Source: a virus (lineage: Duplodnaviria; Heunggongvirae; Uroviricota; Caudoviricetes). Taken from it: a stretch of 6,214 nt of DNA. Numbering within the stretch: the stretch's first letter is position 1; each line of letters starts with the position of its first letter. The notes below the pieces were generated by a model, which was given only the letters and a program-made list of their open reading frames with translations, was not told the origin of the DNA and made no database searches. Below are positions 2,548-6,177 of this stretch, piece by piece. The translations under genes and the position numbers were made by a program. The stretch is taken from the IMG/VR virus record IMGVR_UViG_3300014522_000013. One strand, 5' to 3'.

Positions 2548-3030
2548 TTATTTGATAAGAAGTGAAGGTTTCCCAACCTTGAGTTGAGCGCCGGGGATAT
2601 TTATTCCTGCTTTTAGTTGGTGCTTGATTGCCAACTTGTCGGCTTTAATTGTCGTTTCGAACTCAACGTATTCAGGAGGAAGGGCGCTTGAGTCGATGAT
2701 TTCTACAGTTTCTGACGGTTTGCGGATTGTTACCTGGTGAATACCTGCTCTAATCTTTTTCTTGCCAACCATTTCAAGCGATGACGCTATATATGATTTG
2801 ATGCTGTCAATCTTATTTTGAATTACTGCGGCTCGCTCATTCAGCGACTTTGCCTCTTCCTTGAGGCGTTCAGCATAACCAGATTCATTTTTAATGACGG
2901 AAAGAAGTTGCTCTATTTTATCGGTAAATTCTCCTTCCATGCCTTCTATTGTGTCAGCAATCATCTCTGGTTCTAAATCTGAATCCATCAATTTTGCGTA
3001 TTCATTGGCAATTTCATACAGTTTGCTCAC
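2548..3030 (-). CDS. Siphovirus Gp157-family protein (recombination-module accessory protein), about 160 aa
   Basis: Translation (..SKLYEIANEYAKLMDSDLEPEMIADTIEGMEGEFTDKIEQL...IPGAQLKVGKPSLLIK) has the size and pattern remembered for the Sipho_Gp157 family. Track start is a TTG at 3036 that abuts GGAGG; the GTG at 3030 has GGAGG with a 6-nt spacer and is the likely start. Overlaps the RecT 3' end by 17 nt. Confidence 0.78.
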   Translation of the reverse strand: MSKLYEIANEYAKLMDSDLEPEMIADTIEGMEGEFTDKIEQLLSVIKNESGYAERLKEEAKSLNERAAVIQNKIDSIKSYIASSLEMVGKKKIRAGIHQVTIRKPSETVEIIDSSALPPEYVEFETTIKADKLAIKHQLKAGINIPGAQLKVGKPSLLIK

Positions 3031-3916
3031 TGGCAACCTCCAGTTTCGCTTTGCATTCTGCGTAAATGGCTTGTACGTTCTGCTGCAATTTCATTCCAGA
3101 TGTCAGGCGATATGCTTCTGCAAAATATCGCTTCAAATCATCCATGTTTTCTGCCTGAGCCATTTCATCGCAAAGAAGTTGTGCTTTATCCATTATTTCC
3201 TGCTGGCGTTTCCGTTCATCTTCGCGGATATCTTCCTCTGATTTGTGCGGCATAACTGGTTCCTGATGCATACCTTCATCTTCGTTAAGAAGGTGAATGG
3301 CATTATCCAGTCGCTGGGCTTTAGGCCAGTATTTGCTGGCGCGTTTAACTATTGTTTTACGCGCCATCTCTTCCCAGAATGTTTTCCACGGTCCATTCTT
3401 TGCCTTGCTCGTTGCTTCCACAGCTTTAATTTCTGCCAGACTCATTTCTTCAGTCAGGTAGTCACCATCTGCTGTTTTAACCGTGCAATAACCTCCAACA
3501 ATAGAGCCTCGCTCACCAAATGCGTTGTATTTGTGGGTTGGTGCTGAATCAAGGCCATTTGATTCATAGGTGTCGTTTGAGTACACCAGTTTGCATTGCC
3601 CCCACTTAATTGATCCTGTCGATTGCGCAAGATGAAGTAATCCCATGTAACTGATATCAAGGCACACCATGCCGTCGCGAGGAACCAGATAAGCCAGTTT
3701 GCTGGCCGGGTTTAAGGTGATGCCGATCGCCGCAACATTGATGATGGCGTTCTGTGCGCTGGTTGGATTTGCCAGTGCTGTTTTAGCCAGGTAATCGTTT
3801 TTCTGGAAATACTGAATTGCAAACTGGCTTTCCTTAGCCCATGTCACCGTCTGTTCAGTCAATGCTCCGCAGAATAACTGCTCCTGCTGTTTAACGAATT
3901 CAACGATATTGCTCAT
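3014..3916 (-). CDS. recT: RecT-family single-strand annealing protein (phage recombinase)
   Basis: 300-aa translation carries the RecT/Red-beta core motif ...KNGPWKTFWEEMARKTIVKRASKYWPK..., comparable to E. coli RecT ...NGPWVTHWEEMAKKTAIRRLFKYLPV.... ATG at 3916 overlaps the stop of the upstream 103-aa gene as ATGA; GGAGAAG Shine-Dalgarno upstream. Confidence 0.9.
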   Translation of the reverse strand: MSNIVEFVKQQEQLFCGALTEQTVTWAKESQFAIQYFQKNDYLAKTALANPTSAQNAIINVAAIGITLNPASKLAYLVPRDGMVCLDISYMGLLHLAQSTGSIKWGQCKLVYSNDTYESNGLDSAPTHKYNAFGERGSIVGGYCTVKTADGDYLTEEMSLAEIKAVEATSKAKNGPWKTFWEEMARKTIVKRASKYWPKAQRLDNAIHLLNEDEGMHQEPVMPHKSEEDIREDERKRQQEIMDKAQLLCDEMAQAENMDDLKRYFAEAYRLTSGMKLQQNVQAIYAECKAKLEVASEQTV

Positions 3917-4224
3917 GCAGCTTCTCCAAAAATGTGTCTGCGTTTGAATATTGCGAAGGCATATTCAGCCTTAACTCTTTCGGTTATTGCATCCCAGAAC
4001 CATTCAGCGGCTTTTTCCTGATAGTTACAGTCATCATCTTCCAGCCAGTCGATAGCGTCCTTAGTGTGTTCATCTGGTTTATATGAGCGAAGCATTTCGC
4101 TTATTGGGTCGCAACGTTTGCAGAGACGATCAACTTCACTGTTGATTCGTTCGTAATCTTCATCAGTAAAACTTGCGATTATTTGCGATATTTCACGCTT
4201 ATCATTCAGAGTCAGAATCATCAT
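3913..4224 (-). CDS. hypothetical acidic 103-aa protein translationally coupled to recT; function unknown (possible host-nuclease modulator, by position only)
   Basis: ATG-ATG start at 4224/4221 with AGGAG 4-7 nt upstream; ATGA overlap with recT. Acidic and Trp/Cys-containing (DWLEDDDCNYQEKAAEWFWDAITERVKAEYAFAIF). No similarity to lambda Gam recognised. Confidence 0.72.
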   Translation of the reverse strand: MMILTLNDKREISQIIASFTDEDYERINSEVDRLCKRCDPISEMLRSYKPDEHTKDAIDWLEDDDCNYQEKAAEWFWDAITERVKAEYAFAIFKRRHIFGEAA

Positions 4225-4309
4225 CTTTCTCCTGTTCTTTGTGCTGATTGAGCATTTTGTTCATCTGACGAATGAATTCTTCGTCTGACCAGTTATCTGT
4301 AAAACTCAT
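4202..4309 (-). CDS. candidate 35-aa acidic micro-protein (MSFTDNWSDEEFIRQMNKMLNQHKEQEKDDDSDSE)
   Basis: Hand translation; ATG at 4309..4307 overlaps the TGA of the Kil-like ORF (4308..4306) as ATGA, and its 3' end overlaps the 103-aa gene start by 23 nt. Weak Shine-Dalgarno. Not in the supplied track (below its length threshold). Confidence 0.3.
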   Translation of the reverse strand: MSFTDNWSDEEFIRQMNKMLNQHKEQEKDDDSDSE

Positions 4310-4458
4310 TTCCTGCGATACCACGGAAGGTTGATAGCTGATTTCATCGCTTTATTTGCTTCAAACCACATTTTTGAATCACCAATAAATCTGGCTATTA
4401 CTGCTTTGTTCTGTGCAGCACGAAGCATCTGGTGATTAATGGCTATTTCATTGCGCAT
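4306..4458 (-). CDS. kil: Kil-like small protein (candidate host cell-division inhibitor), 50 aa
   Basis: Hand translation MRNEIAINHQMLRAAQNKAVIARFIGDSKMWFEANKAMKSAINLPWYRRK; GAGG Shine-Dalgarno 7 nt upstream of ATG 4458. Its start overlaps the 3' end of the cIII homologue by 16 nt, as kil overlaps cIII in lambda. The FIGD-x-KM segment recalls lambda Kil, but that recollection is uncertain. Confidence 0.5.
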   Translation of the reverse strand: MRNEIAINHQMLRAAQNKAVIARFIGDSKMWFEANKAMKSAINLPWYRRK

Positions 4459-4574
4459 AATAAGACCTCAACTCTTTTCCATCCGTCACGTAATTTANNN
4501 NNNNNNNNNTCAAGTAAAGATTCATTTAATTGGAAGGCACCCATGCGAGCGCCTCCCGCGATTGCGTAAATCAT
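4443..4574 (-). CDS. cIII: CIII-like protein (FtsH/HflB protease inhibitor that stabilises CII), about 43 aa; four and a half codons are masked by the N-run
   Basis: Hand translation MIYAIAGGARMGAFQLNESLL-[E/D]-xxx-[x]-KLRDGWKRVEVLLCAMK against lambda CIII MQYAIAGWPVAGCPSESLLERITRKLRDGWKRLIDIL.... Readable bases in the two partly masked codons (GAN and NNT) fit Glu and Arg(CGT) of lambda ERITR. AAGGAA Shine-Dalgarno 7 nt upstream of ATG 4574. Missed by the ORF track because of the Ns. Confidence 0.82.
   Translation of the reverse strand: MIYAIAGGARMGAFQLNESLLXXXXXKLRDGWKRVEVLLCAMK
4498..4509. other. 12-nt run of N (masked or unresolved bases) inside the cIII-like coding sequence
   Basis: Literal n characters in the sequence; flanking reading frame is continuous if the run length is correct. 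Confidence 0.95.
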
Positions 4575-4598
4575 GGGTGGTTCCTTATGTTGGTTTTA

Positions 4599-5567
4599 TT
4601 AGTAGGTTATTTTTGTTGCGAATACTTCGCCTTTTACGATGGCTGTTATGATATTTTTAGCAACATCTTCTGGTGCGCCAACCTTGATAAGGTCAGCAAG
4701 TATTTTGTTATTTACTTCTTTCCGGTGAGCTTTATCCTTTGCTCTACGCTCTTCTTCGTCCTTGATTCTTTTTTCTTCTGCTATTCTGGCTTGCTCTTTT
4801 GCTTCAGCCTCGCGCCGGATTCGTTCAGCCTCCTCCTGTGCTTTTCGGCGTTCTGCTTCAATTGCCGCCTGCTTTTCTCTTTCAGCTCGTTCTGCTGCCT
4901 CTTTTGCTTCGCGCTGTGCTCGTTGCTCGGCTTCAATGCGTTCACGCTCTGCACGTTCCGCTGCGGCCTTAGCTTCTGCTTCTCGCCTTGCTGCTGCTTC
5001 AATTTCGGCTTTTGCCTTTGCTTCGGCTTCAGCTCTGGCTTTCTCTTCAGCTTCTCTTTGTAAGCGTTCTTCATGCTCTCGCTTTTCCTGCTCCGCTTTG
5101 AGTCTTGCCTCTTCTCTTTGGCGGTCAAATTCGCGATCCATCAAAATCGCTATTTCATGGTCAGACTCAATTTGCTTTGCGAGAGCTTCAGCTGCTGCCT
5201 TAGCTTCTTCTTCGGCTTTAATCCGCGCCTGTTCTTCCTCATAATCAGTAAGAGGCTGGCGCGCCTTGGCTTTCAGTTCATCAAGGCGATCGCGCACTGT
5301 CTTGCGGTTGGCATCAATTAGCTTTGGAATTTCCTTCAGTTCAGCAACAAGGTCTTTGCCAAGACCATCGAGATATGTTTTCGTCTGCGCAACTTTATAC
5401 GCCAGAGAAGCGATCTCCTTTCTGCCCTTTGCCGTTGTGATATCAGGCACAAAGGACATAACTTCACGTTCAACCTTTTGAAGGATTTCTTCAATCTGGT
5501 CGGCAGACTGAAATACAGTCATTGCATTTGCTTTTTCAATAACAACTAAATCTGTTACTTCACTCAT
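4599..5567 (-). CDS. 322-aa protein: globular N-terminal domain (~105 aa), ~170-aa Glu/Arg/Ala/Lys-rich predicted single alpha-helix or coiled-coil, short C-terminal domain; function unknown
   Basis: Long ORF with GGAGG Shine-Dalgarno 4-5 nt upstream of ATG 5567. Central region is runs such as EAEAKAKAEIEAAARREAEAKAAAERAERERIEAEQRAQREAKEAAERAEREKQAAIEAERRKAQEEAERIRREAEAKEQARIAEEKRIKDEEERRAKDKAHRKE. Stop lies 24 nt upstream of cIII. Confidence 0.85.
   Translation of the reverse strand: MSEVTDLVVIEKANAMTVFQSADQIEEILQKVEREVMSFVPDITTAKGRKEIASLAYKVAQTKTYLDGLGKDLVAELKEIPKLIDANRKTVRDRLDELKAKARQPLTDYEEEQARIKAEEEAKAAAEALAKQIESDHEIAILMDREFDRQREEARLKAEQEKREHEERLQREAEEKARAEAEAKAKAEIEAAARREAEAKAAAERAERERIEAEQRAQREAKEAAERAEREKQAAIEAERRKAQEEAERIRREAEAKEQARIAEEKRIKDEEERRAKDKAHRKEVNNKILADLIKVGAPEDVAKNIITAIVKGEVFATKITY
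4745..5255 (-). repeat. compositionally biased, codon-repetitive DNA (CT/GC-rich on the plus strand) encoding the E/R/A/K-rich segment of the 322-aa protein
   Basis: Plus strand is dominated by gcttc/ctgc/ttct-type units without exact long tandem repeats; it generates several spurious overlapping ORFs in other frames (4530..5063 +, 4762..5244 +, 4781..5128 -). Confidence 0.6.
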
Positions 5568-5600: not shown

Positions 5601-5678
5601 NNNNNNNNNNNNNNNNNNNNNNNNNNNNNNNNNNNNNNNNNNNNNNNNNNNNNNNNNNNNNNNNNNNNNNNNNNNNNN
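5601..5678. other. 78-nt run of N (masked or unresolved bases) between the AT-rich orphan gene and the 322-aa gene
   Basis: Literal n characters; content cannot be read. Followed on the minus strand by ccaatgtgagggcgaTTTTTTga and then the Shine-Dalgarno of the 322-aa gene. Confidence 0.95.
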
Positions 5679-5706: not shown

Positions 5707-6177
5707 CTAATAAAACACCCAATTTTCTGTTTCTTGGTTGTGTCCAAAGTTATATTCAATATCTGGTGTTGATGTATCAATATTCTTCATCCCATCAACA
5801 AGAGTTGATACAACAGCTAAATCTTGTTTGATTCGCATCAAATGGTATTTCTTCCGGCGCAATAAACTTTCAATGGCAAGTTTCTTCGTTGGGAATGCAA
5901 AAGATCTTTCTGCATTTTTTGCTACTTTCTTAATTGCATATCTATTTCTCCTTTGTTTCCATTCCTGTAACCACTGATTTGGTGCTGGTTTAAAATTAAC
6001 AATCCAATGCGCAGGAACCAACCATGCATAATGCTCTGTCTGATGAAAAGCTATATATTGAAGTGCGAATATTTTGATCCCATCTTCTTCAACTGTCGCT
6101 TGGAATCTCCAGAAAACAGGCATTCCATCATGTTCAGTTTCTGATTCAGGAAAAGGTACGCTCCATGATTTTGTCAT
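5707..6177 (-). CDS. 156-aa orphan protein encoded in an AT-rich segment; function unknown (candidate accessory/moron gene)
   Basis: ATG at 6177 with GAGGTGA Shine-Dalgarno about 5 nt upstream. By eye the segment 5680..6214 is roughly 30-38% GC against roughly 45-60% for the rest. No family recognised (MTKSWSVPFPESETEHDGMPVFWRF...RRKKYHLMRIKQDL...). Confidence 0.75.
   Translation of the reverse strand: MTKSWSVPFPESETEHDGMPVFWRFQATVEEDGIKIFALQYIAFHQTEHYAWLVPAHWIVNFKPAPNQWLQEWKQRRNRYAIKKVAKNAERSFAFPTKKLAIESLLRRKKYHLMRIKQDLAVVSTLVDGMKNIDTSTPDIEYNFGHNQETENWVFY

What the first reader, a model, noticed from the sequence alone, without database searches (positions are those of the whole stretch)
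4306..4458. Kil-like small ORF overlapping the 3' end of cIII, as in lambda
A 50-codon ORF with a GAGG Shine-Dalgarno begins 16 nt inside the end of the cIII homologue and ends in an ATGA junction with the next micro-ORF. In lambda, kil overlaps the end of cIII in the same way and encodes a ~47-aa cell-division inhibitor. Sequence resemblance is from uncertain memory of lambda Kil.
Basis: partly seen in the sequence, partly recalled or inferred. Interest (0 to 1): 0.45.

Follow-up and report, generated by a model that had tools for sequence, protein, structure and literature searches.

The report
Known phage Kil cell-division inhibitor gene

Summary
There is a 50-codon ORF (ATG 4458, TGA 4308-4306). 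It has a GAGG 7 nt upstream, a 16-nt overlap with the end of a cIII homologue, and an ATGA stop/start junction with the next small ORF.

The interpretation also holds. The protein matches Pfam Lambda_Kil over the whole profile (68.8 bits; cut-off 27.6) and PHROG 2055 end to end. It is 49/50 identical to the HK022 Kil deposited in 1989 and 17/30 identical to the lambda Kil core. Its DNA is identical to an E. coli gene that RefSeq names "host cell division inhibitory peptide Kil". The same gene is annotated in 789 of 5,426 complete E. coli genomes.

Across 40 DNA alleles, 18 of 19 distinct changes are synonymous in the kil frame. The predicted fold is a helix / Gly-Asp turn / helix hairpin, as published for lambda Kil.

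The likely mechanism, inferred by homology, is ZipA-dependent disruption of FtsZ rings when the pL operon is derepressed.

Two qualifications. P22 "Kil" belongs to a different family. I found no direct test of the HK022-type peptide, whose tail reads YRRK rather than RSSK.

Verdict: already known; low interest.

The parts
4306..4458 (-). kil: 50-aa Kil peptide gene of the HK022/HK97 type (stop codon included)
   Evidence: Pfam PF06301 Lambda_Kil 68.8 bits, profile 1-31/31. PHROG 2055 covers 1-50/50, E 2.4e-35. 49/50 identical to HK022 Kil. DNA identical to E. coli E1 kil, WP_001518153.1. 18 synonymous against 1 non-synonymous change.
4466..4469 (-). GAGG Shine-Dalgarno of kil, 7 nt before the ATG, lying inside the cIII coding sequence
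   Evidence: Read directly from the sequence. A GAGG/GGAGG is kept at this position in 82 of 83 related loci, in two different sequence contexts. HK022 record X16093 annotates a putative ribosome binding site at this position.
4443..4574 (-). cIII homologue (43 aa; 12 bases masked as N at 4498-4509), overlapping kil by 16 nt
   Evidence: The alignment with lambda and ON470594 cIII shows the conserved ESLLERITRKLRDGWKR core. Pfam Lambda_CIII 56 bits for the unmasked equivalent. RefSeq name: 'protease FtsH-inhibitory lysogeny factor CIII'.
4306..4309 (-). ATGA stop/start junction between kil and the next small ORF
   Evidence: Read from the sequence. Conserved in 83/83 related loci.
4202..4309 (-). 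35-aa acidic micro-ORF downstream of kil (MSFTDNWSDEEFIRQMNKMLNQHKEQEKDDDSDSE), probably translationally coupled to it; function unknown
   Evidence: PHROG 17766, E 7.6e-16, unknown function. Annotated as a hypothetical protein in phage ON470594 but not in RefSeq E. coli E1. The N-terminal 15-16 residues are shared by nearly all 83 loci.

Best explanation
This is the kil gene of an HK022/HK97/Sf6-type lambdoid prophage of E. coli, sitting in the early-left (pL) operon. That operon reads leftward: 156-aa ORF, coiled-coil ORF, cIII, kil, micro-ORF, 103-aa ORF, recT, gp157/Gam-like, and so on. Shown here: it is a real gene under purifying selection, a member of the Lambda_Kil family, with a predicted two-helix hairpin joined by a Gly-Asp turn. 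Inferred from lambda Kil and HK629 Kil experiments (PMC3961180, PMC11762379): the prophage repressor keeps it silent. On induction or infection, pL transcription makes the peptide from its own SD, which lies inside the end of cIII. The peptide then disassembles FtsZ rings in a ZipA-dependent way, so the host stops dividing and filaments during the lytic programme. Prolonged expression kills the cell.
For: Family membership: Pfam Lambda_Kil 68.8 bits against a 27.6 cut-off, full profile, and PHROG 2055 'Kil protein for bacterial septation inhibition' over 1-50/50. Direct alignment to lambda Kil: 17/30 identical across the core, QxLxAxQxKxxIAxFIGDxKMxxEAxxAxK. 98% identity to the annotated Kil of HK022, HK97, Sf6 gp31 and CUS-3. 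RefSeq annotates the identical DNA as kil. Same position as in lambda and HK022, directly after cIII and overlapping it. Purifying selection: 40 alleles give only 2 protein variants, with 18 synonymous and 1 non-synonymous change. dN/dS is 0.29 against phage Dewey. Against Cronobacter phage ENT47670 synonymous sites are saturated while pN is 0.24. AlphaFold2 single-sequence model, pLDDT 85: H2-25, turn G26-D27, H28-42. This matches the helix / G19-D20 turn / helix reported as essential in lambda Kil (PMC11762379). No Rfam family on either strand, and no terminator-like site between cIII and the 103-aa ORF.
Against: The function of this particular subtype rests on homology only. In the paper library I found no experiment on the HK022/HK97-type Kil; the tested peptides are lambda Kil and HK629 Kil. 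Outside the 30-residue core the peptide differs from lambda: it has 7 extra N-terminal residues and a C-terminal tail NLPWYRRK. PMC11762379 says an RSSK/RSK motif is present in nearly all lambda Kil homologues and suggests it matters. NCBIfam has no HMM hit for it, so the RefSeq name probably comes from another rule. Expression in this prophage was not measured.
Confidence: 0.93

Rival explanations
1. It is a true Kil-family peptide, but the HK022-type tail and N-terminal extension give it a different partner or mechanism from lambda Kil. For example, it might inhibit FtsZ without ZipA, or act on another divisome or elongasome protein, as Rac KilR does on both.
For: The C-terminus is YRRK, not RSSK/RSK, and there are 7 extra N-terminal residues. 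PMC11762379 assigns a functional role to the termini: losing both abolishes activity. No direct experiment on this subtype was found.
Against: The whole helix-turn-helix core that is necessary in lambda Kil is conserved, including the FIGD turn. The tail is still a basic cluster at the aligned position. Lambda Kil tolerates loss of either terminus alone.
Confidence: 0.06
2. The ORF is a chance reading frame or an untranslated remnant. On this view the conserved DNA serves something else, such as the antisense ORF 4331-4435(+) or an RNA element of the pL transcript.
For: A 50-codon ORF is unremarkable in this window, which has 87 ORFs of 25 aa or more. Third codon positions of kil coincide with third positions of the antisense ORF, so position bias alone does not separate them.
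Against: In the kil frame there are 18 synonymous changes against 1 non-synonymous. In the best antisense frame there are 13 against 6, plus a new stop. The antisense ORF is broken by stops in phages Dewey and ENT47670, while kil stays open. No Rfam hit. The protein is homologous to an experimentally characterised peptide.
Confidence: 0.01

Closest known systems
Kil of phages HK022, HK97, Sf6 (gp31), CUS-3 and mEp/HK-series lambdoid phages; E. coli RefSeq WP_001518153.1
   Same: Same length (50 aa), 98-100% identity, same 16-nt overlap with cIII, same ATGA junction with the next ORF. The F32 allele of this window is found in 6 of 83 related loci and is DNA-identical in E. coli strain E1.
   Different: One residue differs from the common allele (F32 instead of L32). 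Here it is paired with a lambda-like cIII rather than the HK022-like cIII. That is ordinary lambdoid mosaicism.
Bacteriophage lambda Kil (47 aa; NP_040619; Pfam PF06301)
   Same: Same Pfam family. 57% identity over the 30-residue helix-turn-helix core, including the FIGD turn. Same position after cIII in the pL operon, overlapping it. Same predicted helical hairpin (PMC11762379).
   Different: 7 extra N-terminal residues. Tail NLPWYRRK instead of ILKLRSSKSIH. 16-nt instead of 32-nt overlap with cIII. Downstream neighbour is a micro-ORF and a recT module rather than gam, which lambda kil also overlaps. Function tested for lambda, not for this subtype.
HK629 Kil (37 aa; tested in PMC11762379)
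   Same: A Kil-family peptide with the same hairpin core. It shows that a non-lambda family member inhibits division in a ZipA-dependent way.
   Different: HK629 Kil is a close lambda-type sequence ending in RSK. The present peptide is of the more distant HK022 type.
Phage P22 Kil (62 aa; Pfam DUF5444)
   Same: Same name and same position, directly after c3 (the cIII equivalent) and overlapping it in the pL operon.
   Different: No significant sequence similarity (E 0.26) and a different Pfam family. It is a positional analogue, not a detectable homologue.

Membership tests
Lambda_Kil (Pfam PF06301) / PHROG 2055 | Sequence match to the family profile above the curated threshold | tested here: met
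   68.8 bits against a gathering score of 27.6, profile 1-31/31, E 2.7e-19. PHROG 2055 covers 1-50/50, E 2.4e-35. Lambda Kil itself scores 72.3 bits in the same search.
Lambda_Kil (Pfam PF06301) / PHROG 2055 | Pairwise similarity to the founding member, lambda Kil | tested here: met
   BLASTP 17/30 identical, no gaps, E 6e-9.
Lambda_Kil (Pfam PF06301) / PHROG 2055 | Small peptide (about 37-60 aa) folding as helix / Gly-Asp turn / helix; all three elements are required in lambda Kil (PMC11762379) | tested here: met
   AlphaFold2 single sequence, mean pLDDT 85.4: H2-25, G26-D27, H28-42. The turn aligns with lambda G19-D20. This is a prediction, not a solved structure.
Lambda_Kil (Pfam PF06301) / PHROG 2055 | Location in the early-left (pL) operon immediately downstream of cIII and overlapping it | tested here: met
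   16-nt overlap with a Lambda_CIII homologue. Same order as in lambda, HK022, ON470594 and E. coli E1. 81/83 related loci keep the overlap.
Lambda_Kil (Pfam PF06301) / PHROG 2055 | C-terminal RSSK/RSK motif, said to occur in nearly all lambda Kil homologues (PMC11762379). This is a suggested functional motif, not a formal family criterion. | tested here: not met
   The tail is NLPWYRRK: a basic cluster at the aligned position but no RSK. The whole HK022 subtype shares this tail.
Lambda_Kil (Pfam PF06301) / PHROG 2055 | Expression causes filamentation through ZipA-dependent loss of FtsZ rings | not testable with these tools
   Shown for lambda Kil (PMC3961180) and HK629 Kil (PMC11762379). No report found for the HK022 type.
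P22 Kil (Pfam DUF5444) | Sequence match to P22 Kil or its profile | tested here: not met
   BLASTP E 0.26. The window protein hits only Lambda_Kil and P22 Kil hits only DUF5444.

The most novel reading that the evidence does not exclude
The HK022/HK97-type Kil is present in about 15% of complete E. coli genomes and is apparently untested. With its different termini (N-terminal MRNEIAI extension, PWYRRK tail in place of RSSK), it might inhibit division by a route that differs from lambda Kil, for instance without ZipA or through another divisome partner. It might also act together with the translationally coupled acidic micro-ORF downstream.
Probability: 0.07. Interest if true: 0.3.

Novelty: already known. 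Interest (0 to 1): 0.06.

Why it matters
It matters little beyond correct annotation. The gene was named kil in the HK022 sequence record X16093 and is named routinely by RefSeq and PHROGs. The useful results are a confirmation that the first-stage reader can recognise a 50-codon overlapping gene from raw sequence, and a reminder of two facts. The most widespread E. coli Kil subtype has, as far as the searchable literature shows, only been characterised by proxy through lambda. And P22 'Kil' is a different family that shares the name.

Tried and rejected
It is rejected as a test of the hypothesis, not as evidence against it.

(2) NCBIfam scan: no hit for kil, cIII or the neighbours, so it is uninformative.

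(3) Rfam scan of the whole window: nothing at gathering thresholds, so no RNA-element alternative.

(4) Promoter/terminator scan of 3900-4700: 2 promoter-like sites against 2.0 expected, and no terminator. There is no sign of an independent kil promoter, which fits read-through from pL.

(5) Antisense ORF 4331-4435(+), considered because its third codon positions coincide with those of kil: rejected on synonymous/non-synonymous counts and on stops in divergent relatives.

(6) Literature searches for experiments on HK022/HK97 Kil: none found. The library covers open-access papers only, so older subscription papers may have been missed.

(7) The large homology searches (search for homologous proteins, the search of protein representatives) and fold search were deliberately not run. 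The answer was already unambiguous and their cost was not justified.

Full report
**1. Observation**

The feature lies on the minus strand. Read 5'->3' on that strand, an ATG at 4458 opens a 50-codon frame that ends with TGA at 4308-4306. The product is MRNEIAINHQMLRAAQNKAVIARFIGDSKMWFEANKAMKSAINLPWYRRK.

GAGG sits at 4469-4466, 7 nt before the ATG. The upstream ORF (4574->4443, 43 codons, with 12 bases masked as N at 4498-4509) ends with TAG at 4445-4443. So kil starts 16 nt inside it. The kil stop overlaps the ATG of the next small ORF as ATGA (4309-4306).

An ORF of this size is not significant by itself, because the window holds 87 ORFs of 25 aa or more. The case rests on what follows.

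**2. Identity**

- The protein matches Pfam PF06301 (Lambda_Kil) across the entire 31-position profile at 68.8 bits, against a gathering score of 27.6.
- It matches PHROG 2055, 'Kil protein for bacterial septation inhibition', end to end (1-50/50, E 2.4e-35).
- Against lambda Kil itself (NC_001416, 33187-33330), BLASTP gives 17/30 identities without gaps over the core (E 6e-9).
- Against the HK022 Kil of record X16093, annotated 'kil gene product (AA 1-50)', it is 49/50 identical. The only difference is F32 for L32.
- tblastn finds the same 50-aa protein at 96-98% identity in HK97, Sf6 (gene 31), CUS-3, the HK and mEp series and Stx-converting phages. More distant members occur in phages of Cronobacter, Serratia and Proteus, and all of these pass the Pfam threshold.
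- In E. coli strain E1 the DNA is identical, and RefSeq names it 'kil: host cell division inhibitory peptide Kil', WP_001518153.1.
- A 191-nt query around the gene finds it at 95% identity or better in 789 of 5,426 complete E. coli genomes, with that same annotation in every listed row that covers kil.

**3. Context**

All substantial ORFs of the window are on the minus strand and make up a lambdoid early-left operon:

- 156-aa ORF (5707-6177)
- 322-aa coiled-coil ORF (4599-5567)
- cIII
- kil
- 35-aa micro-ORF
- 103-aa ORF (3913-4224)
- RecT (3014-3916)
- Gp157/Gam-like protein (2548-3036)
- DUF5405, Ea22-like and DUF551 proteins

In the closest phage, vB_EcoP-683R2 (97.4% identity), this block is followed upstream by N, cI and cro.

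The upstream ORF is a genuine cIII. It aligns with lambda cIII through the ESLLERITRKLRDGWKR core, and its unmasked equivalent hits Pfam Lambda_CIII at 56 bits.

No terminator-like site, and no excess of promoter-like sites, lies between cIII and the 103-aa ORF. No Rfam family matches either strand.

**4. Is it a real, selected gene?**

From 83 related loci (80 IMG/VR contigs plus annotated records) I extracted 40 distinct DNA alleles of the 153-nt gene. They encode only two proteins, L32 and F32. Of the 16 variable columns, 14 are third codon positions.

Third positions of kil coincide with third positions of the antisense ORF 4331-4435(+), so I also classified every change in all six frames:

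| Frame | Synonymous | Non-synonymous | Other |
|---|---|---|---|
| kil frame | 18 | 1 | none |
| best antisense frame | 13 | 6 | 1 new stop |

The antisense frame is interrupted by stops in phages Dewey and ENT47670, where kil remains open.

Against Dewey (76% protein identity) dN/dS is 0.29. Against ENT47670, synonymous sites are saturated while pN is 0.24.

The overlap geometry is conserved too. The ATGA junction is kept in 83/83 loci, the 16-nt cIII overlap in 81/83, and a GAGG/GGAGG before the ATG in 82/83.

**5. Fold**

AlphaFold2 on the single sequence gives mean pLDDT 85.4. The model has helix 2-25, a turn at G26-D27, helix 28-42 and a low-confidence tail.

Naha, Cameron and Margolin (PMC11762379) report the same architecture for lambda Kil: helix 4-18, G19-D20, helix 21-38. 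They show that deleting either helix or the turn abolishes activity, while either terminus alone is dispensable. The G-D turn of the window protein aligns with that of lambda.

**6. Mechanism**

Shown here: a conserved, selected peptide gene of the Lambda_Kil family, sitting in the pL operon with its own SD inside cIII.

Inferred from lambda: expression after repressor inactivation disperses FtsZ rings in a ZipA-dependent manner. This causes filamentation and loss of viability, and it modestly lengthens the latent period (PMC3961180). A second family member, HK629 Kil, behaves the same way (PMC11762379).

I put this at about 0.93.

The remaining uncertainty is that I found no experiment on the HK022 subtype itself. 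Its termini also differ from lambda: it has a 7-residue N-terminal extension and a PWYRRK tail, where lambda has the RSSK motif that the 2025 paper considers functionally relevant. A basic cluster is still present at the aligned position.

**7. Comparison and membership**

The gene is a member of the Lambda_Kil family. The profile match, the pairwise match to the founder, the predicted fold and the synteny are all met. The RSK motif is not met, but it is not a formal criterion. The phenotype is untestable here.

It is not related in sequence to P22 Kil, which is Pfam DUF5444 although it occupies the equivalent slot after c3. A study of lambdoid mosaicism likewise found several Kil protein clusters with little or no mutual similarity (PMC9836094).

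**8. Verdict**

Both the observation and the interpretation are correct, and the gene is already known and routinely annotated. Interest is low (0.06).

The only mildly open point is whether the very common HK022-type Kil works exactly like lambda Kil. A single induction experiment would answer that.

Noticed in passing
window ~4260-4475 (minus strand), compared with loci L005-L084: kil sits in a small mosaic cassette. Two very different cIII types (lambda-like MIYAIAGG... and HK022-like MMHFQLAGSG...) both end in ...LCAMK* and overlap kil by 16 nt, but with different SD contexts. So one recombination joint lies just 5' of the kil ATG. A second joint lies after about codon 16 of the downstream ORF (~4260), where a 35-aa type and a 52-56-aa type diverge.
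   Followed up: partly
window 4202-4309 (-): A 35-aa, very acidic micro-ORF starts at the ATGA junction with kil. Its N-terminus MSFTDNWSDEEFIRQ is shared by nearly all 83 related loci. It matches PHROG 17766 (unknown function) and weakly matches a 52-aa PHROG labelled 'recombinase'. It is annotated in phage ON470594 but left unannotated in RefSeq E. coli E1. It overlaps the start of the 103-aa ORF (ATGATG at 4224) by 23 nt.
   Followed up: partly
window 4498-4509 and 5601-5678: Two runs of masked N (12 and 78 bases). The first falls inside cIII, where relatives read ...ERITR... The second lies in the spacer between the coiled-coil ORF and the 156-aa ORF.
   Followed up: yes
window 4599-5567 (-): A 322-aa ORF has a long Glu/Ala/Lys/Arg-rich coiled-coil middle. 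It is labelled 'TolA protein' or 'cell envelope biogenesis protein TolA' in some records and 'coiled-coil domain-containing protein' in RefSeq. It has no Pfam hit and its PHROGs are of unknown function. The TolA label looks like a composition artefact.
   Followed up: no
L085 (phage P22) 2002-2190 (-): P22 'Kil' carries the same PHROG-derived product name as lambda Kil in the RefSeq phage record. However, it belongs to Pfam DUF5444 and shows no significant similarity to the Lambda_Kil family. The shared name hides two unrelated-looking peptides in the same genomic slot.
   Followed up: yes
annotated phage records under: cIII is labelled 'CIII anti-termination' in many phage records (PHROG-derived), whereas RefSeq bacterial records call it 'protease FtsH-inhibitory lysogeny factor CIII'. 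From my own knowledge of lambda biology, the anti-termination label is a misnomer.
   Followed up: no
window 3913-4224 (-) and 5707-6177 (-): Two well-conserved pL-operon ORFs (103 aa, PHROG 3486; 156 aa, PHROG 1636) have no Pfam or NCBIfam match and no known function.
   Followed up: no
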